A DNA stretch of 64,000 bases from an uncultured archaeon (GTDB taxonomy: Archaea > Nanobdellota > Nanobdellia > Pacearchaeales > GW2011-AR1): positions 99,584 to 163,583 of the forward strand of contig CABMGO010000005.1 in the NCBI GenBank assembly GCA_902385655.1, in the 5' to 3' direction. The notes beneath the pieces were generated by a model. It made no database searches. It saw nothing but the letters and a program-made list of their open reading frames with translations, and was not told the origin of the DNA. Shown here in pieces: positions 20,591 through 42,209 of this stretch (positions are counted from its first letter, which is position 1; each line of letters opens with the position of its first letter). A program made the translations under genes and the position numbers.

Positions 20591-20591
20591 A

Positions 20592-25616: not shown

Positions 25617-26171
25617 ATGGAAGAAAAAGAGGATCTAAAAGAAGAGGATATTGAAAAATTAAAGCAAGCAAATATTAGTCTAATAATTGATACTTACGAT
25701 GATATTTTCTCAGACTTCGATCCAAGAGACTTTAACCAGCGAGCTCTTTCCGACGACTTTTTGATAGAATGTAAAAAAGCAGCAAGAGATAAACTAAGCG
25801 GAATAGAGTTAAGAATAATGGTTCCAAAATCAATAAGAAATTTTAAAGATGAGTCCAAAATAAAAAAAAGACTTTTAGATCATTTCAAACATCATTATTC
25901 TTTGGAAGAAAAACAAATAAGAAAAATAGTTTGGGAAGGAATTTCTTGGTTCGGACTTGGAACAATATTTATTTTAAGTGACTCATGGCTAAAAACATTA
26001 AGCATTAACAATTTTGGTTTAACAATTTTGTCAACAATATTAGAACCAGCAGGATGGTTTTCATTCTGGGAAGGATTAGGAAAAGTTTTCATAACAGCAA
26101 AGGAAAAATCAGAAAATTATGAATTCTACAAAAAGATGTCTGATGTAGAAATAAACTTTTTAGAATATTAA
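25617..26171 (+). CDS. Hypothetical protein with C-terminal TM segments
   Basis: ORF; hydrophobic segments. Confidence 0.4.
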   Translation: MEEKEDLKEEDIEKLKQANISLIIDTYDDIFSDFDPRDFNQRALSDDFLIECKKAARDKLSGIELRIMVPKSIRNFKDESKIKKRLLDHFKHHYSLEEKQIRKIVWEGISWFGLGTIFILSDSWLKTLSINNFGLTILSTILEPAGWFSFWEGLGKVFITAKEKSENYEFYKKMSDVEINFLEY

Positions 26172-27040
26172 ACTTTTGAAAGTTTCTTTAGTCTATTTTC
26201 TAAAACAGGCAAACTAGAATTAATTTTTTGAAGCCTCTCATGATACGAACTTGTTCTAACGTTATAAGTTAAAGCAGATATCTTATTCTCTTTAAATCGA
26301 TCAGTTTGTGCCTTTTTAATAAGTTCAGAAAGTGTGCTTTTCTCAGAATGTAATTTTCTAACTGTCATCCTCAAAAATCTAATTCTTAATTTAACATAAA
26401 CAAAATAAGTAAAGAAAATTAATATAACAATAAAAATAGTTATCTGTATCCAGTATCGATAAAAAAAGTTTCTCGCCTGTAATGCCAAACTTTTGAAAAT
26501 AGAATTATTTCCATATTCAGAATCATAAGAAGTTCTAAAACTCTCTAAATAGGTTTGAGACTCATTTAGCCTACCATTATAAAAAGAATCTCGCGCCAAT
26601 AAAAAGTAGTTAGAAGTTTCATTAGAAATAGGATCAGATAATTTTTTTTGCTCAAGATTTAACAGATCATACAAATCCAAAGTTTGCGAGCGAATATCTG
26701 AAACTCGGTTTGTCAAAGCAACGACATCTGAATACTGCAAATTCTTCCAATTTATAAACTGAAGTGCACTTCTTGCATCAATTCTTTCTTGCAAACTAGA
26801 ATTAACTTCTCCACGCAAAATTTGAGCATAAAGAACTTGTATGTAAACATTCTTCGCCTCGACAATTGTATCATTGATATCTGAGTAAGGCAAACTAAGA
26901 TTGATAAACTCATTCAAAATTTTTTCACTATTATTTATTGCGATCAATGCATCTTGAGCAGAATATGTCTGATTTGCTTCCGCCGCTAAAACAAAACTTC
27001 CAAAAAATAAAAATAGCGATAATAAAATTAACTTTTTCAC
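26168..27040 (-). CDS. Secreted or anchored coiled-coil protein (signal peptide, C-terminal TM anchor preceded by FFYRYW, short cytoplasmic tail); GTG start, GTGA-coupled to the giant gene
   Basis: N-terminal signal MKKLILLSLFLFFGSFVLAAEA; C-terminal TM; overlap aaGTGAaa. Confidence 0.5.
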   Translation of the reverse strand: MKKLILLSLFLFFGSFVLAAEANQTYSAQDALIAINNSEKILNEFINLSLPYSDINDTIVEAKNVYIQVLYAQILRGEVNSSLQERIDARSALQFINWKNLQYSDVVALTNRVSDIRSQTLDLYDLLNLEQKKLSDPISNETSNYFLLARDSFYNGRLNESQTYLESFRTSYDSEYGNNSIFKSLALQARNFFYRYWIQITIFIVILIFFTYFVYVKLRIRFLRMTVRKLHSEKSTLSELIKKAQTDRFKENKISALTYNVRTSSYHERLQKINSSLPVLENRLKKLSKV

Positions 27041-30000
27041 TTTGTAGCCACCTGCAAATATTTGCCTTCATATTTATCTTGGTTATTAACCAAATGCAAG
27101 GTGGTTTTCTCATTTTCTATTTCAGCGAGTCTCTCAGTGTACATCTCAAACTCAATGTCATACTCTGCCTTAGAAATTAATTTCTTTTTGAAATAATTTT
27201 CCTGCAATCTCACTATTTCAGATTCAACTTGCTTCGCTTCCAATTCTAAGTCCTTAGAAACTTGTTGAGCACTTAAAAGTTTTATCCGATTATTCCTTAA
27301 ATTAACTCTAGACTTCTTAATATTTGCAATTCTCTTCTGATATCTGTTCATCTCATCATGATAATCATGTGCAGACTTTCTTCCAGAAAGATACAATTTC
27401 TGAGAATGCTTTCTCAATTCTCCAATAGTCTTCTCTTCCTTATTTAGATCCTCTATTTTTTGAGAAATAGAATTTTTCTTATAAGCTCTAAAGCCTACAA
27501 TAGACACAAAACTCAACAAAATCAAAGCAACTAAAACGTATTGCCAGTACAGATAAAAGAACAACCCAACATTACCCTTTCTCTCTAAGACAAGAAGTAC
27601 TTGCGCCTGTCTCGCTCTCTCGAGTGCAAGTTCATAGTCTCCCCTCTCAAATGCTGCAGAAGCCAGATCAATAATCTCTTGAACATCTTGACTTGCAAAA
27701 ACTGCCTTACCTGTCACGTAATCAAAACTAGAAACACTTTGATTGTTGATATTAACTTCCCGAGCAACATTTCCGACAATTAAATTTGTCTTTGCAGGAT
27801 CATTCAAAGCAGTGACCAACCTGGCTATTAAATCATTCACAGTAAACGCCATCTTGCTAATGTCTATGACTTGTGAAGATAAATCGAAAGACTCCTTATT
27901 TCTTCTTATATCCAATTTAGATTTTGCTTGGTCAAACAAACTCTGAACATTAACCACATTAAATAAGTGCTCAGTCATATTCTTAAGTGCCTTCTCAGCA
28001 TCAAATAACTTATTACTAGCAACCTCATAACTTACTTCTTGAATGATTAATTTAATATATTGTGTTTCAGTATAATCACCGACAGTTTGATTATAAACAA
28101 TCTGTCCTCTAATATGTGCAGTAACATTATATTCTTCGTAAGCTTCCTTGTATGAAGGAACCTTCAAGGTAACAGTAAAAGATCCATTGGAGTTTGGACC
28201 AAGATATTTAATAATTGAAGGATAAAAGTCCATGTATTGAGACAAATATCCTGTTAAGTTAAGAGACAGATTTTGAAGGCTTGCCCCAGAACGATTATTT
28301 TGAACAACAAGATCGAGCTTGCCCCCCTCACCTCGAACAACATCAATTATTTTCGAATAAACTATTTCAGCTCCCCCGCCACCGCCGGCCTGGCTACTAA
28401 TTGTTCCGCCACCGCCGGCCTGAACAACAGTTTGAGTAATAGTTAGTGGATTTGTAATTCTTATATTCCTTAAATCAGAGGCGCTATCAGCATTAGATGA
28501 ATTAGCAAGAGCAGAAACATTAACAATTGAACCCGATATTGAAGAAGAAACATTTATCTTAATTGAATTTGTTCCAGAAACACCTACCGGAACAGTACCT
28601 AGATATCTAGACAGTATTCCAGAAGTTAAATCAAAACCTGAAGGCAAACTCCAGCTAAGATAAACGTCGTGAGCGTCAGCAGTTCCAAGATTAGTAACTG
28701 AAACAACAAAGTCTAGATCTCCTTGCCCTCGAGTAACTGAAGATGAGTATGTGTCAATAGAAACCGATAAATAAGGACCAGAAGCAGTTTGAACATTTAA
28801 GTTTCTTTCAATCACAACAGTTCCAGCTTCAGATCTAACAGTTATGTTATAAGGATAAAGAGCAGAAGTTAAACCAGTTAAGTTAACATACAGGGGAAGA
28901 TACAAAACATCTCCAGAAGATGCAGAATAATTTTCAGTTTGATTTAAAGTGTTATTCAAATTAAATCTGCCAACAATATCAGCACTCGCACTAATTGAAA
29001 CATTATAATTCAAAGAAGTATCCGAAGTTGTATTTAAAATAATGTAACCTAACTCATTGGAAGAACTTCTTTCGGTATAAGTAAAAGATTTCACAACAGT
29101 TATATTTGTACTGATAGCCTGAGAAACATCAGGATAGACACCAAGAGTATAGTTCGAAGAAATATTAGTATTGCCTTGCGCATCACTAGCATTAACATAA
29201 AATGTCCAGTTACCTTCGGCAAAAACAATGGAAGTATTATAATTCGTTAAGCTATTATTTGTCATCAGAGAAGTTGACCAAGAAGAATCTGAAATATTTT
29301 TATAATAAACTATTGCGCTACCCATCAAGTAATTATCACTAACTGTTGCATTTATTGTAACATCTACCCCCGGATCAAGTTCGTCACTAGTATTTGGAGA
29401 ATAAATTATTTCGCTAACTGATGGAGCCCGGTCATCCAAAACTGTCACAGTTCGACTTACACTATCATTAACTCTTCCAGCCAAATCAAACAAATAAACT
29501 TGAATAGAATAGACTCCAGGAGTATAATTTCCTTGAGTAAACAAGTAATTAATTGAATCAGCTGTTCCGCTCAAATCAATCTGAGAACCATTTACAAAAC
29601 TTCCGGAGAAATTATTACTTAATATTGCATAATCTAATCCAACAGCATCGGAAAAAGAGGCATTACATGTCAAATTTTTAGAATCATTAACTGTATTGTC
29701 ACAATTAAAAGAGTTTACAGAAGGGTTATTCAAATCCACACTCACAACCACAGTTCTATTTCCTTGATTTTTATTTGAAGAAGTATCATTCGCATAAAAA
29801 ATAATATTGTGTACTCCTTCAGCTAAACTAATAGTTGCATTCCAATTTCTCAAACTAGTATTACCCAAGTTAAATATACCAGAACCATTATTATATCCAG
29901 CCCAAGAAAGATCTTCGTTAGTACTTATATTCAATAATACGGAACCATCTAAGTCATATGAATTATTTAATGGAGATAAAACAGTAATAACTGGTGCAAC

Positions 30001-33000
30001 CAAATCGTTTACAGTCGTATCTACAACAATACTAACATTTGCAATTCCTAAATTGCCAGAACTATCAATTGCATAAAATATAACAGTATAACTTCCATCA
30101 GCAAGAGTCGAAGTTTTACTCCAGCTTACACCACTTCCAGTTAAAGAAACATTTGTTGTGCCTCCATCTAAACTATAATTTACTGAAACTACTTCCTCGT
30201 TTGTCGTTAGACTAAATAAGATAGAACTAGTCGAATAATTCTGAGCAATGGGAGAATTAATTGTTAAGACTGGAGCAGTCACATCATTTACATCGAAGGT
30301 AGTCGAAGTTGAATCCGTATTTCCTGCAGCATCAGTTGCATAAAATCTACAAGTGTAATCACTTCCTTTTTGAACATTTATAATAGTATAATTAGCATAA
30401 CCTGTAGAACTTAAATCGATTGTATGATTCATAAAAACCATCGGAGTAGTAGCGTCTTCACTAATTTTAACACTTGATAATGCGAAACTATCATTAATAT
30501 AGGCTGTACAATTCGCATTCTGAGTTTCATTTACAGATGTAGCCGAAACAGAACTGAATCTTGGAGCAAGAGTGTCCGCATAAAAAATAATTGAAGAACT
30601 ACCAATATTCCCAGAACTATCATTAGCATAAACCACTAAACTATTTGTAGATTCTTGAGCCAAGTCCGGAAGAGTTGCATTCCAGTTCAAAAGAGTAGTA
30701 TTGGTCAAAGAAATATTTGCACTTCCATTAAGAGAATATTTAACCCAGCTAACATTTTCATTAACACTTACATTTAATGCAACCCCGCTCAAAGATTTAT
30801 AAGAAGCATTTGCAATAGAATTTATCGTAACAACAGGAGAAATAAGATCTCCAGCACCAGTATTTATACTGAATACTACCGCACTAGAAACTCCTAAATT
30901 TCCAGAAGAATCATTTCCATAAAAGACAATAGAATATGCTTGGCCACTTACACCAGTAAAAGTTGCATTCCAATTCGTAGGTGAAGTATTTCCCATAGAA
31001 TAATTGAATCCAGTAGAATTGAGATGATACCAACCAGCAGACAAATTCTCATTTGAAATAAAACTGAATAATATATCTACCTGATTATAAACTCCACCAT
31101 TAGTTGGACTTGTTACAGTAATAGAAGGAGCAGTCACATCACTTACACTAAATGATGCAGAAGTAAAATTAGTATTCCCAGCTACATCAGCTGCGTAAAA
31201 TCTACAGACATAATTTCCAGCGTTAGCCAATTTACTTCCAACAATTACATAACTAGCTAATCCAGAATTTCCAGAAAATGAAATTGTGTGATTTTCAAAA
31301 CTACCTAAAGAATTTTCAGAAATAATTACTGAATTTATATTATAAGTGTCATTCCAGTAAATAGAACAATTTACAGGCAAAGACTGATTTGTCGAAGGTG
31401 CAGAAACAGAAGAATACCTTGGAGCCAAAGAATCAGCATAAAAAACAATTGTCCTGTTACCTTGATTTGCAGAACTGTCATTGCCGTACACAGTAATAGT
31501 ATAATTTGTTTCTTGACTCAGAGAAGTTAAATTAACATACCAAACTCTTGCAGTAGCACTCGTCAAATTCAATAAACTTCCACCGTTCAATCTATATCCT
31601 GCCCAAACCAAATCTTCGTCAGAACTAACATTAACATATGTTCCAGAAGGATTAGTATAGCTAGCATTAGATGGAGAAACAAAAGTCAAAGAAGGAGCAG
31701 TGATGTCTACTGGAGTTTGAATAGTAAAATATCTCAAAACACTAGATCCAAAGTTTCCAAAACTATCATTCGCATAAAAAGTTATGTTATGCAAACCATA
31801 AGCTAAGTTATTCAGACTTGCAATAAAAGAAGTTGATGAAAGATTAGTCATCGAAACATTTGCCGTGCCGTCTAAAGAATATCTTGCTGAAGCAGAAGCC
31901 TCTGAAGTTGCAATTTCAGCACTAATATTTACAGAAGAAAAACTAGTATTAGTCGGAGAAATAATTGTTATAGTTGGACCTGTTGAATCAGTTGTATAAC
32001 TTCCAGTCAAAGGATTTGCAGTAGCAGATTCATTCAAAGCATCTAAAATGTATGCATACCAATTATGTGTTGCAGAATCACTTTCAGAAGCAAACCCACA
32101 ACTAAGATTCGCAATAGCAGTTGCAAAGCAGTAAGTTCCATAGGTACATCCCGAGTTCGATATTCCAGATTGATTACAAACATACAACTTAATCGTCTGC
32201 CCAGAATCTGAATCAGAAGAAACTGTTGAAATGCTAACTGTCGTCCCGCCCAAAATTGTAGCAGCATTATCCGTTGCAGAACTAAAAACCGGAAGTTGAT
32301 TTATTTTTATTGTTTTACTAACTAGTGTTTGATTGTTACCTGAATAATCCGAAGAAAAATATCTCAAGTAATTTGTGCCTCTAACTAAAAAATTTATCTG
32401 ACCAAGATTATCTATCGCACCAGAAGGAGTACAAGTATTTGTTGAATCAGTACAATAATATGTTTTAGGATCAGAGTCAACATTATCTGCCTCGCTAATA
32501 GTTACTGCATACCCAGGTAATTGAACACTAGAAACCGAATTATCCGAAGTTGTTGGCGCAGTATAATCTAAAGTAAAATCTACATTCAAATTATCAGAAG
32601 CAGTCTGCTCATTTCCGTAAGAATCTTTACAAGAAACGTATCTCGTTGTTGCACCCTGAGAAACCACATCACTAACATTACAAGCAGCATATATTCCAGA
32701 AATGCTGCATTGATGACCTGAAGACATAGAAGAATAAGAACTATCTGAACTACTCCATCTGCAACTCATTCCAGATTGACCTGAGATATTTATCAGAGTA
32801 AATAAATCATTAACATTATCATAGTAGGGCGCAATAGTTCTCCCAGCAACACTTACAACAGAAGTAGACATTGAACTTCCGAGAACTGTGTAAGTATAAT
32901 TTACTTTATTAGAGTAAGAAACTCCATCGTACATCCTACAATAAATAGTATAATTTCCTGCGACTTTATTAGGAGTATAAGTACAATAAGGAGAGTAAGG

Positions 33001-34083
33001 ACTTAATAAATTAGAAACATTTCCTGAAGAACACATAGAGTTGTCTACTGGAAAAAGTGGAAAACTATCTGAACAATAAAATTGAAGAGTATCAAGATTA
33101 CTATCATTAACACTGTTGGCAGTAATATTCAAACTAGTAGAAATTCCGGAAGGATTTGGAGAAACAGTAATATTAGAAATAGTTGGAGGTAGATTAACAA
33201 AAAAAGTTAACGAGCTAGATGCATTATTTCCATAACTATCGTTTGCATAAACATACCATGTGTGGCTTCCAACAGAATCTGTCAAACCCGAAGTGATGTT
33301 TACCTGAACTCCAGAAGTGCAACTAAAACTTATATTTGTCCCATTACCATTATACCAACAAGACGCCAAATTATTATCACTAACAGTTACATTAAGACTT
33401 GTAACATTCGAAGTATAAGTAGTGTTCAGGGGATAAACAACATTTATTGAGGGAGGAATAGCATCAGGAGTATAAGTAACATTAAAATAAAGATCATCTA
33501 CGCTAAGTGTCTTCGCACCACCGGTTGTTGAAGCAACCTGTAAATATGCAATCGCTCTTGATCCCGAAGCCGTAAAAAAACTATCACAAGACCAATTTTC
33601 AATAGAAGTTACATCAGTACAAATTTCTCCAGGATTTGCAGTTGTTCCCGGACAAACACTAGAAGCAGTTTGATAAGAACCACCGGCATGTGCATCAACA
33701 CTGACACTACAAGTACCAATAGAAGAAGAGCTAGACCACCATTCATAACAAACTTTTACATTAGTAATCCCTCCGCAATTAGAAACACTAGAGTTATAAT
33801 TAGAAGTTCGAATACCCATAAACTGATTATTCCCATTGACAGAAGCACTCTGAATAACTGCATTATTAGTATCAATACTTGTTGTAGAACTACAAACTCC
33901 ACCGAACCCTTCACTAATCCCACTATTATTTTCTACAGCACAAGCCTGCGAAACCAAAACACTATTGGGAGAAGTTGCTCCAGGAAAAGCAAAAGCAGCT
34001 AATACACCAGCCAAACTCAAGAGAACAATAAATAAGAAAAAAACAGAAGAAATTCTTAAATTAGCTAATTTTCCAATAATCAT
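27037..34083 (-). CDS. Giant (2348 aa) cell-surface protein: N-terminal signal/TM, >20 Ig-like ~90-aa repeats extremely rich in N-x-S/T sequons, Gly runs, C-terminal TM anchor (FFYLYW...) and ~220-aa cytoplasmic coiled-coil tail
   Basis: SD GGGAGGAG 9 nt upstream; repeated motif AP..T..SP.N.SY...NE...Y.L.G...N.T...W...FYANDSSGN; hydrophobic helix near aa 2095-2120. Confidence 0.85.
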   Translation of the reverse strand: MIIGKLANLRISSVFFLFIVLLSLAGVLAAFAFPGATSPNSVLVSQACAVENNSGISEGFGGVCSSTTSIDTNNAVIQSASVNGNNQFMGIRTSNYNSSVSNCGGITNVKVCYEWWSSSSSIGTCSVSVDAHAGGSYQTASSVCPGTTANPGEICTDVTSIENWSCDSFFTASGSRAIAYLQVASTTGGAKTLSVDDLYFNVTYTPDAIPPSINVVYPLNTTYTSNVTSLNVTVSDNNLASCWYNGNGTNISFSCTSGVQVNITSGLTDSVGSHTWYVYANDSYGNNASSSLTFFVNLPPTISNITVSPNPSGISTSLNITANSVNDSNLDTLQFYCSDSFPLFPVDNSMCSSGNVSNLLSPYSPYCTYTPNKVAGNYTIYCRMYDGVSYSNKVNYTYTVLGSSMSTSVVSVAGRTIAPYYDNVNDLFTLINISGQSGMSCRWSSSDSSYSSMSSGHQCSISGIYAACNVSDVVSQGATTRYVSCKDSYGNEQTASDNLNVDFTLDYTAPTTSDNSVSSVQLPGYAVTISEADNVDSDPKTYYCTDSTNTCTPSGAIDNLGQINFLVRGTNYLRYFSSDYSGNNQTLVSKTIKINQLPVFSSATDNAATILGGTTVSISTVSSDSDSGQTIKLYVCNQSGISNSGCTYGTYCFATAIANLSCGFASESDSATHNWYAYILDALNESATANPLTGSYTTDSTGPTITIISPTNTSFSSVNISAEIATSEASASARYSLDGTANVSMTNLSSTSFIASLNNLAYGLHNITFYANDSFGNFGSSVLRYFTIQTPVDITAPSLTFVSPSNASYTNPSGTYVNVSSDEDLVWAGYRLNGGSLLNLTSATARVWYVNLTSLSQETNYTITVYGNDSSANQGNRTIVFYADSLAPRYSSVSAPSTNQSLPVNCSIYWNDTYNINSVIISENSLGSFENHTISFSGNSGLASYVIVGSKLANAGNYVCRFYAADVAGNTNFTSASFSVSDVTAPSITVTSPTNGGVYNQVDILFSFISNENLSAGWYHLNSTGFNYSMGNTSPTNWNATFTGVSGQAYSIVFYGNDSSGNLGVSSAVVFSINTGAGDLISPVVTINSIANASYKSLSGVALNVSVNENVSWVKYSLNGSANISLTNTTLLNWNATLPDLAQESTNSLVVYANDSSGNIGSSSIIFYADTLAPRFSSVSATSVNETQNANCTAYINDSFALSSVKISEDATTPMVFMNHTIDLSSTGYANYTIINVQKGSDYTCRFYATDAAGNTDSTSTTFDVNDVTAPVLTINSPIAQNYSTSSILFSLTTNEEVVSVNYSLDGGTTNVSLTGSGVSWSKTSTLADGSYTVIFYAIDSSGNLGIANVSIVVDTTVNDLVAPVITVLSPLNNSYDLDGSVLLNISTNEDLSWAGYNNGSGIFNLGNTSLRNWNATISLAEGVHNIIFYANDTSSNKNQGNRTVVVSVDLNNPSVNSFNCDNTVNDSKNLTCNASFSDAVGLDYAILSNNFSGSFVNGSQIDLSGTADSINYLFTQGNYTPGVYSIQVYLFDLAGRVNDSVSRTVTVLDDRAPSVSEIIYSPNTSDELDPGVDVTINATVSDNYLMGSAIVYYKNISDSSWSTSLMTNNSLTNYNTSIVFAEGNWTFYVNASDAQGNTNISSNYTLGVYPDVSQAISTNITVVKSFTYTERSSSNELGYIILNTTSDTSLNYNVSISASADIVGRFNLNNTLNQTENYSASSGDVLYLPLYVNLTGLTSALYPYNITVRSEAGTVVIERNLNVQTASGPYLSVSIDTYSSSVTRGQGDLDFVVSVTNLGTADAHDVYLSWSLPSGFDLTSGILSRYLGTVPVGVSGTNSIKINVSSSISGSIVNVSALANSSNADSASDLRNIRITNPLTITQTVVQAGGGGTISSQAGGGGGAEIVYSKIIDVVRGEGGKLDLVVQNNRSGASLQNLSLNLTGYLSQYMDFYPSIIKYLGPNSNGSFTVTLKVPSYKEAYEEYNVTAHIRGQIVYNQTVGDYTETQYIKLIIQEVSYEVASNKLFDAEKALKNMTEHLFNVVNVQSLFDQAKSKLDIRRNKESFDLSSQVIDISKMAFTVNDLIARLVTALNDPAKTNLIVGNVAREVNINNQSVSSFDYVTGKAVFASQDVQEIIDLASAAFERGDYELALERARQAQVLLVLERKGNVGLFFYLYWQYVLVALILLSFVSIVGFRAYKKNSISQKIEDLNKEEKTIGELRKHSQKLYLSGRKSAHDYHDEMNRYQKRIANIKKSRVNLRNNRIKLLSAQQVSKDLELEAKQVESEIVRLQENYFKKKLISKAEYDIEFEMYTERLAEIENEKTTLHLVNNQDKYEGKYLQVATK

Positions 34084-34596: not shown

Positions 34597-35805
34597 TTAA
34601 CCCGTATCGCTAAACACTTCCTGTTCAGGATAAACAACAATTCCTTCAGCAGTTATTTGGGCGGCAACTATTTTCTTTTGATGAGAAACCCCTCGAAGTT
34701 TTAATAACTCGATGGCATTTTCTCTAACATTTCCGTGCTTCAATGCATACAAAACAATTACCCCATCAGCCAAGAACTCCTCTACACCTGTTTGTGAAAA
34801 TATTTTAGGAACTTGTTCTGTTTCAGTAACTAAAAATGAAGTAGCACCAGTTTTTTCCAAGAATCTAAATAATTGTTCAATATAAATACGATAACTATCT
34901 TCTTTCCCAGTAAATGCAGAAGCTATCGCAGTCAAAGAATCAATGACTACAAAATCAGGATGCGCAAAATCCTCAGGCATAATTACTGGATCAACATCAA
35001 TCAATAACTCTCCTTTCTGTTGTGCAAGTAACGCATCAACATTTCTCGTAATATCGAATGGATTCATTCTCTGCAATCTTAATTTTCCTTTTTTAATTAA
35101 TTCCCTAGGATTCCAACCAAAACCTTCCATATGCTCAATCAACCTTTCCTCATTCTCTTCAAAGCTCATATAGAAACATTTTTTTCCTTCTCTTGCCTTG
35201 TTAATTAAAGTCTGTAAACAAAAAATAGTTTTACCACTTCCAGCACCACCAGCAACTAGTACAGAAGAACCAGAGGGAATTCCTTGTTCAAGTAAATCAT
35301 CAAAACCTTTAATTCCAGTTTTCACATAATCTTTCCCTAGCTTTCCAGTTTTTTCCTTAGAACCCTCAAGAACATGAACTAACGGTGCTCTTTTTTCAAA
35401 AATTTCAGCCTCAGATTTTTTTATTTTTCCGCCGCGTAATTTTTCTTCAACTTCTTGTTTAACTTTAGTAGCATCAAATTCTTTTTGTTTAGAAACTTCA
35501 ACTTTCTTATCAGATTTTTTCTTAATATGCTTTTCCTCTAACGAAACTATCTTTGCTTTATCCCCTTGCTCGACAACTTCCTCTTCACCCGCTTTCCAAC
35601 TGTGAAGTTTGGCCATATTAACTTTTCTAACACCAACATGATTTGCTCCAATTAGTCCGTGAAGTCTAGCAAGAACAGTATGTCTCGCTAAACCAGTCAT
35701 TTTCATAATATCGACGATAGAAAGTCCTTCAGGATGACTTTTAAGTAAATCAGAAATCGTAGTCTTCACCTTATCTTTTTCAACTATTACCATAACCTCT
35801 CCCAT
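34597..35805 (-). CDS. Winged-HTH + KaiC/RecA-superfamily ATPase
   Basis: Walker A GGAGSGKT, Walker B FVVIDS, KaiC-like core; N-terminal HTH; start set at MGEV with TATA TTTATAAATAAA 16-27 nt upstream (leaderless). Confidence 0.7.
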   Translation of the reverse strand: MGEVMVIVEKDKVKTTISDLLKSHPEGLSIVDIMKMTGLARHTVLARLHGLIGANHVGVRKVNMAKLHSWKAGEEEVVEQGDKAKIVSLEEKHIKKKSDKKVEVSKQKEFDATKVKQEVEEKLRGGKIKKSEAEIFEKRAPLVHVLEGSKEKTGKLGKDYVKTGIKGFDDLLEQGIPSGSSVLVAGGAGSGKTIFCLQTLINKAREGKKCFYMSFEENEERLIEHMEGFGWNPRELIKKGKLRLQRMNPFDITRNVDALLAQQKGELLIDVDPVIMPEDFAHPDFVVIDSLTAIASAFTGKEDSYRIYIEQLFRFLEKTGATSFLVTETEQVPKIFSQTGVEEFLADGVIVLYALKHGNVRENAIELLKLRGVSHQKKIVAAQITAEGIVVYPEQEVFSDTG

Positions 35806-35820
35806 CAATTTTAAAACACA

Positions 35821-35832
35821 TTTATTTATAAA
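35821..35832 (-). promoter_or_regulatory. TATA box of the leaderless wHTH-KaiC-like gene
   Basis: TTTATAAATAAA ~20 nt upstream of the ATG. Confidence 0.45.
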
Positions 35833-35894
35833 TGTTGCGATATATGACAGTTGTATATGCCTAATAAATAAAACATATGAATTTGACAAGTATA

Positions 35895-36273: not shown

Positions 36274-38613
36274 TCACTCTAGCAACTTCTTCAACTTTTT
36301 CTGCTCTTCAAGAATATTCTTTTCTACAGAATTGACCTTCTTCTTCAAATCTTTTTTAGCTTCTAAAAGCATTTTCTTTCTAACCTCATCATTTTCAGAT
36401 TCCAATCTGTGTTTCTCATGCATCTCAAAAGCACGTTCTTGTTTTTCAGTCTGACTTTGCAATTCCTTTTGTTTTCTAGCTAATTCATCATCAAATTTTT
36501 TCTCCATTACAAGTTTTTCATTTTTTATTTGTTTCTCAAAATCACTCTTCTGAGATTCCATCGTAGCAACAAACATATTTTTTTGTTTTTCAAGCTCAGC
36601 AGATTCCTCTTTCTTAAGATCTTCAACCTGTCGATTAAATTCTACTTTCTCTTCTATAAACTCTTTACCCAATTTGCTCTTTTCAACTTCCAAATTTTTC
36701 TTCTCAATAATTTTATCATGTAAACTCTCTTTAAGCTCCTTCAGTTGAGCCATTTGAGCAGCACTAATTTCCTTATTATTCTTAAGTTCAGAAATTTTTT
36801 TCTTTAGCTCTTCATTCAGTTTATTCAAAGACTCAGCCTGAGTAAGTACCTCTTTTCTAAACTGTTCTTCTTCTCTCGAAAGTTGCTTTTTTTCATCAGC
36901 TACCTGCAAATTCAAATTTTTTATCTGAGAATTATATTTATTTTGTAAATTAATCTCAAAAGATTTCTCGTGTTCTTCAAATTTCTGCTTAAACTTGTTC
37001 TCTAATTCAACTCGTCTAGATTTGTATCTTTCAGCCAATTCGACACGTTCTTTTTTCAAAGACTGCAAAAGATCTTGATTAACTTTCTTCTGACTTTGTT
37101 CAGCCGAGAATAATTTATTATATTTTTCTTCCAAATTGCGTTCTTCTTTTCTATTTTTTTCCACAAGCTCTTTTTCTTCTCTGCCAAACTGTTCTTCTAG
37201 CTTAAGCTCTTCAGATTCCAATGTTTTTCTAGATTCCTCCCTAAGAGAATTAAGAAGATTTTTTCTTACAGATTCATTTTCAAATTCCAACTTTTTTCTT
37301 TCTTGAGCTTCAAACTTTCTCTCTTCCTGTTTTTCTTGTCTCACTAATTCTTCCTCTCTTCTTTTAAAACGATTTTGCAAAGCAAGTTCTTCAGATTTTA
37401 ATTTCTGATTTAATTTTAATTCAATCTCTCGTCTTATTTTATTTTTTAATGCCTCGCTAATTTGTTCACGCTTTTTCCTTTCCTGCTCCTTTTCTTCTTT
37501 CTTAATTAAATTTTCTAATTTCTTATCTAAATCAGATTCTCTTTTCTGTAAAGAATTGCTATATGCTTCTCTTTCTAATCTGAGCTGATTTTCCTTAATT
37601 TTCAAATCCCCAATTCTTGATTTAAGATTTTTTAGAAGAGAAACTTGAGTTCCACTAACTCCTTTCGCACTAAGTTCTGCAGCCTGACCATTCAAGCCGT
37701 TCTTCAATTTTCTTAAAGATTCAGATTTGTTCGCAAGATCATTTTTCAACTTTTGCTCTTGAGATTTCAGTTTTTGTTTTTCCTTATCAACACTTTCTTT
37801 AATACGTTTGACTCTCAAATCGCTTTTTTTCTGAAATTCTAATTCTAAACTCTTTTTCTGATTATCCAAAGCTTTTTTCAACTGTTCCTTGAGTTCTGCA
37901 GAATATTTTTTCTGAAGTTTAGACTTCTCCCTTTTCAGATTTTTCTCCTCTTCCTTACTCAACTCTTCTTCAATTTCCTTTTCAGCCTCTGACTCATCTA
38001 CTTCTTCCTCTTTCTTCCCTTTCTTCTTGCCTCCCTTAAAGAAAAACAACTCTTCGGACTTGGAAGGAATTTCTTTAGAAACGCCTAATGCAACCTTGCC
38101 GGATTTCCCAATCAAAAGATGTTGTCGAGCATATGCATGATAGTCCTGATCATCACCAAGAATATGGTTTCTCAGCCAATTAGCCATAAAAGTCCTCGCT
38201 TCAGCGATTAAATTCAAAAGACTAAAAGAAGTAATAGTGCTCTTATCCGAACGATATAACTGAGTATATAGTTTATCTTTAAAATTTAAAAAATACTCCA
38301 CAAAAGCCAAATGAATTTTTCGGTGCATCTCCAATTTAGGGTACTCAATTCTTTTCATATAACCTTCTTCATAAGAAAAATGTTCTCGAGCATATTTATC
38401 AGTCAAATCAATAATCTCTCGGATCCTTGCAACTTCTTCCCCCTCCTTAGTTTCAACAAGCAATCGATTGAGTATTCCAAGTAATCCTTGATGTTGATGA
38501 TCGATGTTAGCCTCTTCTACGCTCATCTTGGGAATCCAAACGACTGGCTTGCCTTTAGCAATAACTAACCTCCCCTGCTTAATTTTGCCTATAACCTCTT
38601 TTTTATTTTTCAT
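36274..38613 (-). CDS. Hemerythrin-domain protein with ~600-aa K/E-rich coiled-coil extension
   Basis: N-terminus IDHQHQGLL...HFSYEEGYM...HRKIHLAF...WLRNHILGDD (bacteriohemerythrin pattern); the rest is heptad-like KE repeats. Confidence 0.55.
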   Translation of the reverse strand: MKNKKEVIGKIKQGRLVIAKGKPVVWIPKMSVEEANIDHQHQGLLGILNRLLVETKEGEEVARIREIIDLTDKYAREHFSYEEGYMKRIEYPKLEMHRKIHLAFVEYFLNFKDKLYTQLYRSDKSTITSFSLLNLIAEARTFMANWLRNHILGDDQDYHAYARQHLLIGKSGKVALGVSKEIPSKSEELFFFKGGKKKGKKEEEVDESEAEKEIEEELSKEEEKNLKREKSKLQKKYSAELKEQLKKALDNQKKSLELEFQKKSDLRVKRIKESVDKEKQKLKSQEQKLKNDLANKSESLRKLKNGLNGQAAELSAKGVSGTQVSLLKNLKSRIGDLKIKENQLRLEREAYSNSLQKRESDLDKKLENLIKKEEKEQERKKREQISEALKNKIRREIELKLNQKLKSEELALQNRFKRREEELVRQEKQEERKFEAQERKKLEFENESVRKNLLNSLREESRKTLESEELKLEEQFGREEKELVEKNRKEERNLEEKYNKLFSAEQSQKKVNQDLLQSLKKERVELAERYKSRRVELENKFKQKFEEHEKSFEINLQNKYNSQIKNLNLQVADEKKQLSREEEQFRKEVLTQAESLNKLNEELKKKISELKNNKEISAAQMAQLKELKESLHDKIIEKKNLEVEKSKLGKEFIEEKVEFNRQVEDLKKEESAELEKQKNMFVATMESQKSDFEKQIKNEKLVMEKKFDDELARKQKELQSQTEKQERAFEMHEKHRLESENDEVRKKMLLEAKKDLKKKVNSVEKNILEEQKKLKKLLE

Positions 38614-39083
38614 CTAACTTCAATTTTATCTGCAGATTGTTTAATTAGAGCCACCAACTTCTCGTCAGTACTTCCTTTCGGAAGAACAAAAACTAAGTCT
38701 ACATCCCATTCATGAGATCTATACAGAATAAATGAAAAGAACTTTACCAAGACATCCAAATTATTTCTTATAGCAAGATTAGTTATAGAATCAAATAAAA
38801 TAGTTACTTTTCCAGTAAAAGACTGTTGCGATTGATTTATAGCAATACTGAGAGAAGTTAGATTTTCACCAGACAAATAAATAACACCATTTTCAGAAGG
38901 CTTGTCAATTGTATCAATAAATAGAAAATGTCTGCCCTTAGAAACTTTCACTAGATCATCCTTAAGTAAATCATATGGTTTTGAAGATAAGACTAAAACA
39001 GTATTGTCCGCAGACTTTTTTAGAGATTCAATAAAGTTTTTTTCTAATTTTTCCGGCCTACTCAAAACGAGTTTAATCATCAT
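38610..39083 (-). CDS. Degenerate KaiC/RecA-like (DUF835-like) protein, paralog of 40381-40911 and 41286-41819
   Basis: Shared FID(T/C)..., (I/V)(L/I)FD(S/N), ADK(I/V)EV pattern; no Walker A. Confidence 0.45.
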   Translation of the reverse strand: MMIKLVLSRPEKLEKNFIESLKKSADNTVLVLSSKPYDLLKDDLVKVSKGRHFLFIDTIDKPSENGVIYLSGENLTSLSIAINQSQQSFTGKVTILFDSITNLAIRNNLDVLVKFFSFILYRSHEWDVDLVFVLPKGSTDEKLVALIKQSADKIEVR

Positions 39084-39888
39084 CGCCCCTCACGAAATCT
39101 TTAGACTTTATATAAAAAGCAAGTGCAACAGACACATAAAAAAAAGTATATAGTAAGTCGATAGGATGCCCAGCATAATAAGTGTTATTCTGGCTCATAT
39201 TAGCGAATATCTGGTCATAAACCAGTCGAGTTAACATTCCTCCGCCGAGAATAACCCAATGCCAACCATATTGACTACCTTCGAATAAAATTGGCCAAAC
39301 AAGATAAATAATTAGTAGCAAAACAATAACATCATACAGAATATATGAATCTTGTATAAAATGACTAAAACCAACATTTCCTTCTCGGATATCCTCAGAA
39401 ACATCATTAAAAAGTATAACTCCTCCAATAACAAGGCCAGTAACAACAAGAAGATAAATTAATCTACTGGATGGTCTAAACCCTACTGAAATAAAATAGA
39501 CTAAAGAAATAATCAAAGCGACATACGCCAAACTCCAAGCCAGATCCGGATAGCTCCCCAAAGGAGTAACTTTGTCAAACACGGCCTCAGCAATTAACCA
39601 AAGAAGATCGCCTAAAAAGAATAAAAAAATAGAAATTATTAGAAAAAGCTTACCTTCTTTTTCTCTAGGAAAATTTTGAGAAATTTTTCGATAAATAAAA
39701 ATTGTAGAAAACAACGCTAAAAGAGCAAGAATAACGATAAAGATATTTGCAATAGCATGACGATAATATTGAAAACTAGTCCCAAAAATAAAAATTGCTT
39801 GGAAGACATAAACAACAACTGCAGCAATCAAAATCCAAAAAAATAATCTGCTACTATAAGAACTACTGACTTTGACACCTTTTTTCAT
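39073..39888 (-). CDS. Polytopic membrane protein (7-8 TM), function unknown
   Basis: Hydrophobicity pattern; overlaps neighbours within the operon. Confidence 0.5.
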   Translation of the reverse strand: MKKGVKVSSSYSSRLFFWILIAAVVVYVFQAIFIFGTSFQYYRHAIANIFIVILALLALFSTIFIYRKISQNFPREKEGKLFLIISIFLFFLGDLLWLIAEAVFDKVTPLGSYPDLAWSLAYVALIISLVYFISVGFRPSSRLIYLLVVTGLVIGGVILFNDVSEDIREGNVGFSHFIQDSYILYDVIVLLLIIYLVWPILFEGSQYGWHWVILGGGMLTRLVYDQIFANMSQNNTYYAGHPIDLLYTFFYVSVALAFYIKSKDFVRGDDD

Positions 39889-39952
39889 GATAATCTCAAA
39901 GAAAATATATATTTAAATGTTACATTCTCGGCAAAAATAGATTCAGCAACCC

Positions 39953-40330
39953 CTAACCCTTTATCTCGAATTCTTTCCGAACCAACTCCAAAATCTCGTC
40001 ATTCGAAATTGGTTTTTTCACAATACCAACTAATTTTCTTACTCCCTTCAAATCAGACTCAGTCAATTCAGAACCAGTCAAAAAGATTACTTTTAATTTC
40101 GGAAATTTCTTAGCAAGATCAACTCCGCTCTCACCATCTAACATAAATTCTATAATTGCCAAATCAGGATTTTCTGACTTAATTTTCTGGATAGCCTCTT
40201 CGATATTATATGCTTGAAAAGTTCTGAACCCATTAAATTCTAAAATCTGAGAAATGGCAACAGCAGTCTGTACGTGATCATCTACGATAGCAACAAGCAC
40301 CTTTTTAGAACCAACACTGCTCTCTTTCAT
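39953..40330 (-). CDS. CheY-like receiver protein (REC3)
   Basis: VLVAIVDDH ... IIEFMLDGESG ... FLTGSE. Confidence 0.7.
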   Translation of the reverse strand: MKESSVGSKKVLVAIVDDHVQTAVAISQILEFNGFRTFQAYNIEEAIQKIKSENPDLAIIEFMLDGESGVDLAKKFPKLKVIFLTGSELTESDLKGVRKLVGIVKKPISNDEILELVRKEFEIKG

Positions 40331-40380
40331 AAAATAAGTATACAAAAGAGATTTTTAAATTTTATGAAAATTAAAATAAA

Positions 40381-40911
40381 TCATTTAACTAACACGGTGC
40401 TGTCAACAAAGAGAGAAATATCGGAAACAATCTTCTTTTTACCTTCGAGCATGATCCAATAGAGTGCTTTTATTTTTTTCTGCTGAACTCTGGACATAAT
40501 ACTATTCAAAAATCTTAACACAAATACCTCTGAATTGTATAGAAGCAAACTATCCAAATTATCAAATATCACCAGATCATACTTGCCAATAATAGAAGAA
40601 AATTTCAAAGAAAGTTCAGTTAAAGCGTGCGGAGATGGAAGATAGTACACTTTGTCATTTGAAACAGCTTTCATCAGTTTAGAAGAGACACAGTCAATAA
40701 AAAAACAGTTAGAATAGTCTATTCTATTATCGTCAAAAGTAGTCATCAAAGTTGAAGATAAACGATTTGTAGTTATTACACAAACTTTCTTATATTTTTT
40801 TAAAAGCAATTTGTAAGTCTCAAGAATATTTTTCTCAGGATTGAGATTATCACAAATAGCTAAAACATTGTAGTTCTTATTCAAGTTTGAAACTATTTCT
40901 TTACTCGCCAT
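40381..40911 (-). CDS. Degenerate KaiC/RecA-like (DUF835-like) protein X2
   Basis: Paralog of 41286-41819; KaiC-like Walker B region (VIFDNLDSLLLYN) but the P-loop is replaced. Confidence 0.5.
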   Translation of the reverse strand: MASKEIVSNLNKNYNVLAICDNLNPEKNILETYKLLLKKYKKVCVITTNRLSSTLMTTFDDNRIDYSNCFFIDCVSSKLMKAVSNDKVYYLPSPHALTELSLKFSSIIGKYDLVIFDNLDSLLLYNSEVFVLRFLNSIMSRVQQKKIKALYWIMLEGKKKIVSDISLFVDSTVLVK

Positions 40912-42193: not shown

Positions 42194-42209
42194 ATCACGA
42201 TAAAACAAT

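What the first reader, a model, noticed from the sequence alone, without database searches (positions are those of the whole stretch)
26168..27040. Adhesin-partner gene translationally coupled by a GTGA overlap and sharing the same C-terminal anchor module (FFY-x-YW + TM + basic coiled-coil tail)
The 290-aa signal-peptide protein downstream of the giant gene starts at a GTG overlapping the giant gene's TGA stop (aaGTGAaa). Its C-terminal anchor (FFYRYWIQITIFIV...KLRIRFL + coiled coil) parallels the giant protein's (FFYLYWQYVLVALIL...RAYKK + coiled coil). The shared anchor module and coupling suggest a two-component surface complex whose cytoplasmic tails could be contacted by the neighbouring KaiC-like ATPase.
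Basis: seen in the sequence. Interest (0 to 1): 0.55.

Follow-up and report, generated by a model that had tools for sequence, protein, structure and literature searches.

The report
Paired archaeal surface-anchor proteins, KaiC-linked
A small membrane protein encoded right after a giant surface protein in an uncultured DPANN archaeon is an ancient copy of the giant's stalk, membrane anchor and cytoplasmic tail, and this uncharacterised gene pair recurs across DPANN archaea, usually next to KaiC-like signalling ATPases.

Summary
ORF B (26168..27040, minus strand, 290 aa) starts at a GTG that overlaps the TGA of the 2348-aa ORF A (27037..34083) as GTGA. This GTG is the only start that keeps the signal peptide.

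The shared C-terminal module is real homology. BLASTP gives E 5e-7, the shuffle z-score is 8.3, and profile-profile comparison gives 99.4% probability, E 6e-22. The homology covers the whole of B: helical ectodomain, FFxxYW motif, TM helix and first cytoplasmic repeat.

The pair is conserved. A lies directly upstream of B in 39 of 46 loci from Pacearchaeota, Woesearchaeota and Nanoarchaeia. The junction is ATGA or GTGA in 9 of 16 loci examined. The B profile hits 1781 50%-identity cluster representatives in metagenomes. Pfam, NCBIfam, PDB sequence search and Foldseek give no match, and I found no literature. B's most conserved region is its cytoplasmic tail.

An orthologous KaiC-like ATPase and/or a Walker-A-less DUF7504 relative lies within 5 kb in 21 of 33 loci with enough flank, and in 17 of 19 where both flanks are visible.

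My best reading is a hetero-oligomeric glycosylated surface adhesin or receptor whose tails dock the KaiC module. The complex and the contact are inferred, not shown. It looks like a new variant of archaeal surface and KaiC-hub systems, of moderate interest.

The parts
27037..34083 (-). Gene A: 2348-aa giant type I surface protein, with N-terminal signal peptide, Ig-like/CARDB-like ectodomain and C-terminal stalk-TM-tail module
   Evidence: ORF. Pfam Big_13 hit at 1.8e-13, plus sub-threshold DUF4625, Big_3_4 and NPCBM_assoc. 107 N-x-S/T sequons against 54 +/- 5.7 in shuffles, all upstream of the TM helix. NCBI VVB80271.1.
27040..28029 (-). Conserved C-terminal module of A (residues ~2019-2348): helical stalk, 'AFERGDY' helix, FFYLYW, TM helix and two cytoplasmic KIS..Y repeats
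   Evidence: Homologs P0004-P0012 at 40-50% identity. Homologous to the whole of B by hhalign, 99.4%, E 6.4e-22. AF2 model pLDDT 76.5, with a long helix spanning module residues 224-284 followed by three tail helices.
27544..27561 (-). FFYLYW juxtamembrane motif of A (residues 2175-2180)
   Evidence: F227, Y229/Y231 and W232 of the module are invariant or nearly invariant in alignment A3.
27481..27549 (-). TM helix of A (approximately residues 2179-2201)
   Evidence: Hydrophobic stretch YWQYVLVALILLSFVSIVGF followed by RAYKK, consistent with positive-inside topology. Helical in the model.
27040..27480 (-). Cytoplasmic tail of A, 147 aa, pI 9.4, with two repeats ('YLSGRKSAHDYH...' and 'KKLISKAEYDIEFEMYTERLAEIE')
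   Evidence: B's tail aligns to both repeats.
27037..27040 (-). GTGA overlap: GTG start of B and TGA stop of A
   Evidence: ATGA occurs at the equivalent junction in L001, L004, L009, L014, L016, L017 and L023, among others.
27048..27053 (-). SD-like AGGTGG inside the end of A, 7 nt upstream of B's GTG
   Evidence: AAGGTGG is conserved in L001, and GGAGG-like purine motifs occur upstream of B in several other loci.
26168..27040 (-). Gene B: 290-aa type I membrane protein, paralog of A's C-terminal module
   Evidence: AF2 model pLDDT 88.4, all-helical. NCBI VVB80269.1.
26981..27040 (-). Signal peptide of B (residues 1-~20, MKKLILLSLFLFFGSFVLAA|E)
   Evidence: Read from the sequence. The same N-terminal position is used by orthologs. 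pLDDT is low over residues 1-23. No dedicated signal-peptide predictor was available.
26468..26980 (-). Helical ectodomain of B (residues 21-191), with 8 N-x-S/T sequons
   Evidence: Helices 28-47, 53-76, 83-92, 103-135, 140-154 and 158-195. Sequon positions. Aligns to the A stalk.
26450..26467 (-). FFYRYW juxtamembrane motif of B (residues 192-197)
   Evidence: F192 at 0.86 and W197 at 0.86 frequency in 140 representatives.
26390..26455 (-). TM helix of B (approximately residues 196-217)
26171..26389 (-). Cytoplasmic tail of B, 73 aa, pI 10.8, with one KIS..Y repeat. This is the most conserved part of the family.
   Evidence: Mean top-residue frequency 0.66 for residues 251-285 against 0.46 for the ectodomain. 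Q245, R248, Y259, Y266 and P278 are conserved at 0.95 or more.
34597..35889 (-). wHTH + KaiC-like ATPase with intact Walker A (GGAGSGKT), directly upstream of A
   Evidence: Pfam PF06745 at 6.7e-53; NCBIfam KaiC models; Walker A. Orthologs (phmmer 1e-115 to 1e-132) lie next to A/B in L013, L014, L018 and L023, and KaiC-like genes flank the pair in further loci.
38610..41819 (-). Alternating block of three DUF7504-like proteins lacking Walker A (38610-39083, 40381-40911, 41286-41819), two REC domains (39953-40345, 40911-41285) and a multi-TM protein (39073-39888); a third REC gene follows at 41819-42208
   Evidence: Pfam results. Paralogy of the three DUF7504-like proteins. No Walker A. The DUF7504-like family is the most frequent neighbour of A/B.
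41819..46186 (-). REC (41819-42208), PASx5-HisKA-HATPase histidine kinase (42210-45662) and hemerythrin (45716-46186)
   Evidence: The same components flank A/B in L015, L019, L023, L030, L042, L044 and L045.
36274..38613 (-). 779-aa protein with an N-terminal hemerythrin domain and ~600 aa of K/E-rich coiled coil
   Evidence: NCBIfam hemerythrin at 2.8e-23; sequence. A hemerythrin-KaiC fusion occurs in L014.

Best explanation
A and B are paralogous type I membrane proteins made from overlapping, probably translationally coupled genes. They form a conserved two-gene unit in DPANN archaea (Pacearchaeota, Woesearchaeota, Nanoarchaeia).

A carries a long, variable, heavily N-glycosylated Ig-like ectodomain on a conserved helical stalk, FFxxYW motif, TM helix and basic tail. 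B consists of that stalk-TM-tail module alone.

Shown:
- the homology between B and A's C-terminal module;
- the conserved gene order and overlap;
- the out-to-in topology signals;
- the strong conservation of the cytoplasmic tails;
- the recurrent linkage to a KaiC-like ATPase and to DUF7504-like proteins that lack a Walker A motif.

Inferred:
- A and B assemble side by side through their paralogous stalks, TM helices and tails, in roughly fixed stoichiometry.
- The three KIS..Y tail repeats (two from A, one from B) form a cytoplasmic docking platform for the KaiC/DUF7504 module.
- This couples what the giant ectodomain binds, probably a host-cell or other surface, to the KaiC/REC/histidine-kinase signalling genes encoded alongside. 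The coupling could equally run the other way.
For: Homology:
- BLASTP E 5e-7; shuffle z 8.3; hhalign 99.4%, E 6.4e-22 over 248 columns.
- Reciprocal HMM hits fall only on A and B among 964 and 2175 ORFs.

Gene pair:
- A lies directly upstream of B in 39 of 46 loci.
- The junction is ATGA or GTGA in 9 of 16 loci, and the rest have short overlaps or gaps of 28 nt or less.

Family size and range:
- 1781 cluster representatives at E <= 1e-3, and 502 at E <= 1e-30.
- All 12 hits among GTDB species representatives are DPANN.

Topology:
- Signal peptides are present on both proteins.
- A has 107 sequons, all ectoplasmic, against 54 expected. Both tails are basic.
- Both models are helical through the membrane.

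Tail conservation exceeds ectodomain conservation.

KaiC/DUF7504 linkage:
- 21 of 33 loci with >=3 kb flank, and 17 of 19 where both flanks are visible.
- ORF density 0.125 per kb within 5 kb of the pair against 0.040 per kb beyond.
- Orthologous KaiC at 1e-115 to 1e-132.
- DUF7504-like genes occur in 10 of the first 21 loci.

Other:
- A tandem B-B fusion protein, P0082, shows two such modules can sit in one polypeptide.
- Published context: KaiC-family ATPases are associated with archaeal T4P and surface loci (PMC4858521) and have been proposed as signalling hubs (Makarova et al. 2017, cited in PMC5847659).
Against: - There is no direct evidence of an A-B complex or of tail-KaiC contact. The co-fold could not be run.
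- No Rosetta-stone fusion of the tail to KaiC or DUF7504 was found.
- Some lineages keep an intact B next to a truncated A: 265 aa without a signal peptide in L010-12, an 89-aa remnant in L015, and 587 aa without a signal peptide in L007. B therefore may not need A's ectodomain.
- About a third of loci with adequate flank show no KaiC or DUF7504 within 5 kb, although most of these lack the side upstream of A.
- KaiC and A are separated by 250-2100 nt, so they are probably separate transcripts.
- Ligand and adhesin function are unsupported beyond domain types.
Confidence: 0.5

Rival explanations
1. This is a structural envelope or S-layer-like system. A is the main glycosylated surface coat and B is a stalk or spacer that co-anchors it, as SlaB anchors SlaA. 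The conserved tails only fix the coat to the membrane or to a cytoskeletal element. KaiC and DUF7504 merely regulate expression or are linked for other reasons.
For: - A is a giant, sequon-rich, Ig-like repeat ectodomain with a C-terminal TM anchor.
- The small partner gene is operonic.
- S-layer-like proteins and adhesins are known extras in archaeal T4P loci (PMC4858521). A T4P cluster lies 5-10 kb away in the window and in L015.
Against: - A's length ranges from 265 to 2631 aa, and truncated forms exist.
- The cytoplasmic tail is the most conserved region, which a passive anchor would not require.
- T2SSE/F genes lie within 5 kb in 0 of 33 loci, whereas KaiC or DUF7504 does in 21 of 33.
- No sequence or fold similarity to solved S-layer proteins.
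Confidence: 0.25
2. B acts without forming a stable complex with A. It could be a homo-oligomeric sensor or scaffold in its own right, or an assembly or export helper or competitor that regulates how much A is displayed. The paralogy would then reflect origin by partial duplication, not partnership.
For: - Intact B persists beside degraded A in L015/L051, L010-12 and L007.
- Orphan or N-terminally truncated B copies exist in L002, L026 and L027.
- B's ectodomain has its own conserved residues (D57, A89, D125, F153, R157) distinct from A's.
Against: - A is adjacent in 39 of 46 loci, with conserved start/stop overlap favouring fixed stoichiometry.
- Both proteins keep the same FFxxYW-TM-KIS..Y architecture over large divergence.
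Confidence: 0.2
3. The resemblance is an artefact of composition (TM helix plus lysine-rich coiled coil), or B is a decaying duplicate with no function.
For: - Both regions are compositionally biased.
- Pfam reports only weak TM-driven hits.
Against: - Segment-preserving shuffles never reach the observed score.
- The profile-profile alignment spans 248 columns, including the non-TM ectodomain.
- B is conserved in more than 500 clusters at E <= 1e-30, with an intact signal peptide and tail.
- No other TM or coiled-coil ORF in 87 loci is hit.
Confidence: 0.02

Closest known systems
SlaA/SlaB two-component S-layer of Sulfolobales (from my own knowledge of the family)
   Same: A large glycosylated outer surface protein and a small helical, membrane-anchored partner are encoded by adjacent co-oriented genes.
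   Different: - SlaA has no TM anchor and is not paralogous to SlaB. Here both proteins carry the same stalk-TM-tail module, and the giant anchors itself.
- No sequence or fold match to solved S-layer proteins.
- The long, highly conserved cytoplasmic tails and the KaiC/DUF7504 linkage have no SlaAB counterpart.
KaiC-like ATPase signalling hubs and T4P-associated KaiC-family regulators in archaea (Makarova, Koonin & Albers 2016, PMC4858521; Makarova et al. 2017, cited in PMC5847659; CirA in Haloferax, PMC10983859)
   Same: - A single-domain KaiC-like ATPase with intact Walker A sits with Walker-A-less KaiC-like relatives, REC domains, a histidine kinase and a surface-structure locus.
- The KaiC partner is otherwise unknown, as PMC4858521 notes for most archaeal cases.
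   Different: - The conserved partner candidates here are a paralogous pair of single-pass surface proteins, with no Pfam or NCBIfam model and none found in the literature I could search.
- The system is restricted to DPANN lineages, which were barely represented in those censuses (PMC5847659 Table 1).
Transmembrane helical-bundle receptors with cytoplasmic coiled coils (MCP/Tar-Tsr type). This is an analogy only.
   Same: A periplasm-side helical bundle continues through a TM helix into a cytoplasmic helical hairpin that recruits a cytoplasmic signalling ATPase or kinase.
   Different: - No homology. The Tsr ligand-binding domain is only rank 49 in Foldseek, E 1.3.
- One TM helix per chain rather than two.
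- The proposed dimer is a heteromer of paralogs, and no MCP signal domain is detected.
SHOCT short C-terminal domain (PF09851). This is a resemblance I recalled for the 'KIS..EY......L' repeat.
   Same: A short helical repeat with a conserved [ST]-x-x-E/x-Y/F pattern at the C-termini of membrane proteins.
   Different: SHOCT does not appear among the families listed when all 12 B members were scanned at E <= 10, or A at E <= 0.1. I do not file it as SHOCT.

Membership tests
SlaA/SlaB-type S-layer pair | The outer lattice protein lacks its own TM anchor and only the small partner is membrane-anchored | tested here: not met
   A has its own C-terminal TM helix and a 147-aa cytoplasmic tail.
SlaA/SlaB-type S-layer pair | Sequence or fold similarity to SlaA/SlaB or other solved S-layer proteins | tested here: not met
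KaiC-centred archaeal signalling neighbourhood | A conserved gene neighbourhood with a KaiC-family ATPase across distant genomes | tested here: met
   KaiC and/or DUF7504-like within 5 kb in 21 of 33 loci, and in 17 of 19 with both flanks visible. Orthologous KaiC at E 1e-115 to 1e-132.
KaiC-centred archaeal signalling neighbourhood | Physical interaction of the partner with the KaiC-like ATPase | not testable with these tools
No domain fusion was found.
Archaeal type IV pilus locus accessory adhesin or S-layer-like protein (PMC4858521) | Encoded within or beside a T2SSE/T2SSF (ArlI/TadC-like) pilus operon | tested here: not met
   The window has T2SSE and two T2SSF genes at 16326-20341, 6-10 kb from B, and L015 has them ~7 kb away. 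Across loci, T2SSE/F lies within 5 kb in 0 of 33.
SHOCT domain (PF09851) | A match to the Pfam model | tested here: not met
   SHOCT is not among the 25 most frequently matched families listed when the 12 B members were scanned at E <= 10, nor among A's hits at E <= 0.1.
Type IV pilin-like (class III signal peptide) proteins | A short basic leader, a G/A cleavage site and a hydrophobic N-terminal helix retained in the mature protein | tested here: not met
   B has a Sec-type signal peptide (MKK + hydrophobic stretch + LAA|E) and a C-terminal anchor. Pilin-like ORFs are separate genes at 20592-23633.
PGF-CTERM/archaeosortase-anchored surface proteins | A C-terminal PGF motif, TM helix and short basic tail at the very end of the protein | tested here: not met
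   There is no PGF motif, and the TM helices are followed by tails of 147 aa and 73 aa.
A/B family itself (unnamed; defined here) | Signal peptide, helical stalk, [F]FxxYW, one TM helix and KIS..Y tail repeat(s), with the A gene immediately upstream of the B gene | tested here: met

The most novel reading that the evidence does not exclude
The A/B pair is the membrane-spanning input, or output, of a DPANN-specific KaiC/DUF7504 signalling machine. In this reading a heteromeric single-pass receptor-adhesin uses three conserved cytoplasmic KIS..Y repeats to recruit a KaiC-like ATPase ring and its Walker-A-less paralogs. Contact with a host cell would then be converted into ATPase- or phosphorylation-dependent signalling to REC proteins and surface machinery. 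That would be a previously undescribed class of archaeal transmembrane receptor, and a long-missing partner for KaiC-like hubs.
Probability: 0.3. Interest if true: 0.8.

Novelty: new variant of a known kind. Interest (0 to 1): 0.55.

Why it matters
DPANN archaea such as Pacearchaeota and Woesearchaeota are thought to depend on other cells, yet how they attach to partners and sense them is almost unknown, and most have no cultured representative.

This gene pair is widespread among them: the B profile alone hits 1781 50%-identity cluster representatives (E <= 1e-3), a total that also takes in A-type proteins. It has no domain model, no solved relative and no literature that I could find.

It places a giant variable surface protein in a fixed genetic relationship with a KaiC-like ATPase and DUF7504 proteins. 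Archaeal KaiC-like ATPases have been proposed as signalling hubs, but their membrane partners are mostly unidentified (PMC4858521). A conserved pair of tails next to KaiC gives a concrete interaction to test.

It also supplies a sequence marker, the FFxxYW-TM-KIS..Y module, for finding the surface-protein loci of these organisms in metagenomes.

Tried and rejected
- Word-index homology search with B alone found only 3 close relatives, which understated the family. The profile and exhaustive searches corrected this.
- Pfam, NCBIfam, PDB sequence search and Foldseek-PDB gave nothing meaningful for B. The weak hits (EMC10, long axonemal helices) are TM- or helix-driven.
The second structure job went to the A module alone.
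- I looked for Rosetta-stone fusions of the B tail to KaiC or DUF7504 in long homologs and found none. There were only K/R/E-rich extensions, a tandem B-B fusion, and a B-type module on a LamG/NPCBM protein.
- I rejected a SHOCT identity for the tail repeat.
- I rejected the idea that the pair is a T4P-locus accessory, because T2SSE/F is not near it in other loci.
- The convergent 184-aa TM gene (25617-26171) is conserved only in the closest relatives (L001-L003), so I do not count it as part of the system.
- Literature searches for DUF7504 and for KaiC together with these DPANN taxa found nothing specific. The 2017 mBio KaiC paper is not held in the library.
Full report
**1. The observation**

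On the minus strand, a 2348-aa ORF (A, 27037..34083) is followed by a 290-aa ORF (B, 26168..27040). The + strand reads tcac at 27037-27040, which is GTGA on the coding strand. B's GTG therefore overlaps A's TGA by four bases, in the context aaGTGAaa.

In B's frame a TGA lies ten codons upstream. The next possible starts are TTG at codon 32, beyond the signal peptide, and ATG at codon 225. GTG is thus the only start that preserves the N-terminal MKK + hydrophobic + LAA|E signal peptide. An AGGTGG lies 7 nt upstream of it.

The deposited NCBI proteins, VVB80269.1 (B) and VVB80271.1 (A), use the same boundaries. Both are named 'Uncharacterised protein [uncultured archaeon]' and come from a 317-kb contig.

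These are FFYRYW plus TM helix plus basic tail in B (residues 192-290), and FFYLYW plus TM helix plus basic tail in A (residues 2175-2348). The tail pI values are 10.8 and 9.4.

**2. Is the similarity more than chance?**

Yes, on four counts.

- BLASTP aligns B 192-288 with the A anchor at E 5e-7. It gives a second HSP between B's tail and A's second tail repeat at E 0.008.
- The Smith-Waterman score for the anchor region is 102. Shuffles that keep motif, TM helix and tail composition separate give 39.9 +/- 7.5 (z 8.3, 0 of 2000 reach it). The tail alone gives z 5.2.
- I built family alignments for B (12 sequences, A2) and for the C-terminal module of A (10 sequences, A3). hhalign then gives 99.4% probability, E 6.4e-22, over 248 columns. 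This covers essentially all of mature B and A-module columns 121-403.
- HMMs of each family hit the other and nothing else among 964 and later 2175 ORFs from 87 loci.

So B is a paralog of the entire C-terminal ~330 aa of A. The shared parts are:

- the first helical element ('AEKAxxEMxxxxFN' in A, 'SExIIxEMxxxNFS' in B);
- the 'AFERGDY' / 'AFxxxRY' helix;
- the FFxxYW motif and TM helix;
- the first cytoplasmic repeat.

A has a second copy of that repeat ('KKISxxEYxxxFxxxNERLAEIE'), whereas B has one ('NKISGLVYNIRxKKYxERLxEI').

**3. Structure and topology**

- The AF2 model of B has pLDDT 88.4 and is entirely helical. A bundle spans residues 28-195. One long helix, 197-250, crosses the membrane, and a final helix 256-289 folds back.
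- The A module has pLDDT 76.5. It shows the end of a beta domain, a helical stalk, a disordered loop, the AFERGDY hairpin, a long helix spanning module residues 224-284, and three tail helices.
- A's ectodomain matches Big_13, and below threshold DUF4625, Big_3_4 and NPCBM_assoc.
- A carries 107 N-x-S/T sequons against 54 +/- 5.7 expected, all of them before the TM helix. B has eight sequons in its ectodomain.
- Together with the signal peptides and the basic residues after each TM helix, this indicates N-out/C-in type I topology for both proteins. This is inferred from sequence; no topology predictor was available.

**4. Related loci**

The word-index search with B alone found only two relatives at ~65% identity.

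- In the nearest relative, L001, the junction is ATGA preceded by AAGGTGG.
- Searching with A's C-terminal module found P0004-P0012. In every locus that could be read, the gene was followed by a ~290-340-aa gene that proved to be a B homolog.
- A profile search, a scan of GTDB species representatives and a metagenome scan raised the total to 56 distinct loci with B of at least 180 aa.
- All 12 GTDB hits are DPANN: Pacearchaeota, Woesearchaeota, Nanoarchaeia/Nanoarchaeota or 'uncultured archaeon'. One NCBI record is labelled Heimdallarchaeaceae, which I have not verified.
- The exhaustive HMMER search with the B profile found 1781 cluster representatives at E <= 1e-3, 1257 at E <= 1e-10 and 502 at E <= 1e-30. 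Most of the best 150 are 280-350 aa.
- A lies directly upstream of B in 39 of 46 loci that have upstream sequence.
- Of 16 junctions inspected, nine are ATGA or GTGA, three overlap by 11-14 nt, and four have gaps of 1-28 nt. GGAGG-like purine motifs often precede B's start.

A ranges from about 600 aa to 2631 aa where complete. It also occurs in truncated forms: 265 aa without a signal peptide in L010-12, 587 aa without one in L007, and an 89-aa TM + tail remnant in L015, each beside an intact B.

In a 140-sequence alignment of B representatives, the most conserved stretch is the cytoplasmic tail, residues 251-285. Its mean top-residue frequency is 0.66 against 0.46 for the ectodomain. Q245, R248, Y259, Y266 and P278 are each conserved at 0.95 or more.

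**5. Neighbourhood**

In the window the pair sits at the downstream end of a long minus-strand array. In order, the genes are:

- hemerythrin;
- a PASx5 histidine kinase;
- REC, DUF7504-like, REC, DUF7504-like, REC;
- a multi-TM protein;
- a third DUF7504-like protein;
- a hemerythrin + coiled-coil protein of 779 aa;
- a wHTH-KaiC-like ATPase;
- A, then B.

The KaiC-like protein has an intact Walker A. The three DUF7504-like proteins have none. A type IV pilus cluster (five pilin-like ORFs, T2SSE and two T2SSF genes) lies 2.5-10 kb beyond B.

The same components recur around A/B elsewhere.

- KaiC lies directly upstream of A in L030, L034, L042, L045, L055 and L060. In L023 and L049 a DUF7504-like gene sits between them.
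- KaiC and/or DUF7504-like genes lie downstream of B in L013, L014, L018, L031, L033, L035, L036, L058, L061, L069 and L070.
- REC, histidine kinase and hemerythrin genes appear in several loci.
- Of 33 distinct loci with at least 3 kb of flank, 21 have KaiC or DUF7504-like within 5 kb. Of the 19 where sequence upstream of A's start is available, 17 do.
- The density of such ORFs is 0.125 per kb within 5 kb against 0.040 per kb further out.
- Several of these KaiC proteins are clear orthologs of the window's, with phmmer E 1e-115 to 1e-132.
- T2SSE/F genes lie within 5 kb in none of the 33 loci.
- The convergent 184-aa TM gene that overlaps B's 3' end is conserved only in the closest relatives.

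**6. Interpretation**

Established here:

- B and the A module are homologous.
- The A-then-B gene order, with start/stop overlap, is conserved.
- The topology signals point to type I membrane proteins.
- Purifying selection is concentrated on the cytoplasmic tails.
- The pair is non-randomly linked to a particular KaiC-like ATPase and to DUF7504 paralogs that lack Walker A.

Inferred:

- A and B assemble through their paralogous stalk, TM helix and tail modules. Coupling would favour fixed stoichiometry, and the tandem B-B fusion P0082 shows that two such modules can sit in one chain.
- The three KIS..Y repeats form a docking surface for the KaiC/DUF7504 proteins.
- The system links what the variable glycosylated ectodomain binds to the REC, histidine-kinase and hemerythrin signalling genes.

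Published work already associates KaiC-family ATPases with archaeal surface-structure loci, and notes that their second component is usually unknown (PMC4858521). It proposes them as signalling hubs (Makarova et al. 2017, cited in PMC5847659). In Haloferax, the proposed regulator CirA is implicated in pilin-dependent motility control (PMC10983859).

The main rivals are:

- a purely structural SlaA/SlaB-like envelope role;
- an A-independent role for B, which the truncated-A loci favour;
- a compositional artefact, which the data exclude.

**7. Comparison with known families**

Pfam, NCBIfam, the PDB sequence search and Foldseek-PDB give no significant match for B or for the A module.

- The system resembles SlaA/SlaB only in the 'large protein plus small anchored partner' layout. 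It fails that family's defining features, because A has its own anchor and there is no homology.
- It fits the 'KaiC neighbourhood' concept by synteny, but interaction is untested.
- It is not SHOCT, not a pilin, not PGF-CTERM-anchored, and not generally a T4P-locus accessory.

I found no paper describing this pair or DUF7504.

**8. Verdict**

The partner-protein and KaiC-link ideas gain strong comparative support, but the physical complex and the contact remain untested.

I rate it a new variant of known kinds of system, namely archaeal anchored surface proteins and KaiC-centred neighbourhoods, with interest 0.55. The most novel reading not excluded is that the pair is a new class of archaeal transmembrane receptor feeding a KaiC hub. 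I give that a probability of about 0.3.

Noticed in passing
window 38610-46186 (-): A regular alternation of single-domain REC genes with ~175-aa DUF7504-like genes that lack Walker A (REC, D7504, REC, D7504, REC). It is headed by a PASx5 histidine kinase and a hemerythrin. The same REC/DUF7504 alternation appears in L019 and L015.
   Followed up: partly
window 36274-38613 (-): A 779-aa protein with an N-terminal bacteriohemerythrin domain (2.8e-23) followed by ~600 aa of K/E-rich coiled coil. In L014, hemerythrin is instead fused directly to the KaiC-like ATPase, and small hemerythrin genes precede KaiC in L023, L030 and L042. This suggests an O2, iron or NO input to the KaiC module.
   Followed up: partly
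window 15203-23633 (-): A type IV pilus-like cluster: five small pilin-like ORFs (weak DUF7289 hits), T2SSE, two T2SSF genes and two unknown ORFs. L015 carries the same T2SSE/T2SSF/T2SSF set next to KaiC, four REC genes, DUF7504, a histidine kinase and B.
   Followed up: partly
B homologs at ~residue 30 (e.g. L014:10001-10996, L019:9833-10843); A modules 30-110 aa before FxYxYW (window A: 'NLIVGNVA', 'YVTGKAVF'): A short motif, [LI]TG[FNLK][AV][VI], follows the N-terminal hydrophobic segment in 65 of 140 B representatives, against 5 of 140 elsewhere in B. It recurs in the low-confidence loop of the A stalk in 22 of 36 A proteins. The window's own B lacks it and has an ordinary Sec-type signal peptide. 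It may be a processing or recognition site; I have no explanation.
   Followed up: partly
window 25617-26171 (+): A convergent 184-aa gene overlaps B's stop by 4 nt. It has an acidic N-terminal half and two C-terminal TM helices, with no Pfam or NCBIfam match. It is conserved at the same position only in the closest relatives L001-L003.
   Followed up: partly
L002:1-1176 and L003: In two JGI contigs the B homolog lacks its signal peptide (TTG start, in-frame stop just upstream). It follows a REC-like gene fragment rather than A. This is either a rearranged or decaying copy, or an assembly issue.
   Followed up: partly
L015:9336-9715 (also L051, L052); L010:5163-5960; L007:1812-3575: Truncated A genes sit beside intact B. 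One is an 89-aa ORF that starts exactly at the MYLYW motif and keeps the TM helix and first tail repeat. Another is 265 aa and a third is 587 aa, both without a signal peptide. Either the ectodomain of A is dispensable in some lineages or these copies are recent pseudogenes.
   Followed up: partly
P0082 (586 aa), P0130 (1500 aa), P0151/P0155 (490-529 aa): Architectural variants occur in the wider family:
- a tandem B-B fusion in one ORF;
- a B-type module at the end of a LamG/NPCBM_assoc/Big_7 protein;
- B proteins from less AT-rich organisms with ~200-aa K/R/E-rich C-terminal extensions.
   Followed up: partly
window 24088-25023 (+) and 25067-25149 (+): A secreted or anchored matrixin-like metalloprotease with a CARDB domain, and a tRNA-Ser(GCT), lie between the A/B pair and the pilus cluster.
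   Followed up: no
window 34084-34596: A 513-nt gap separates the KaiC-like gene from A and contains only a dubious 94-aa ORF (34213-34497). Comparable 250-2100-nt gaps separate KaiC from A in other loci. A/B probably has its own promoter or a long leader. I did not examine this region for conserved elements.
   Followed up: no
L015:11544-19430: Downstream of B and a convergent REC gene, L015 carries T4SS_pilin-, PrgI- and TraC/VirB4-like genes and a group II intron-type reverse transcriptase. This may be a conjugation-like or DNA-transfer apparatus in a DPANN contig.
   Followed up: no
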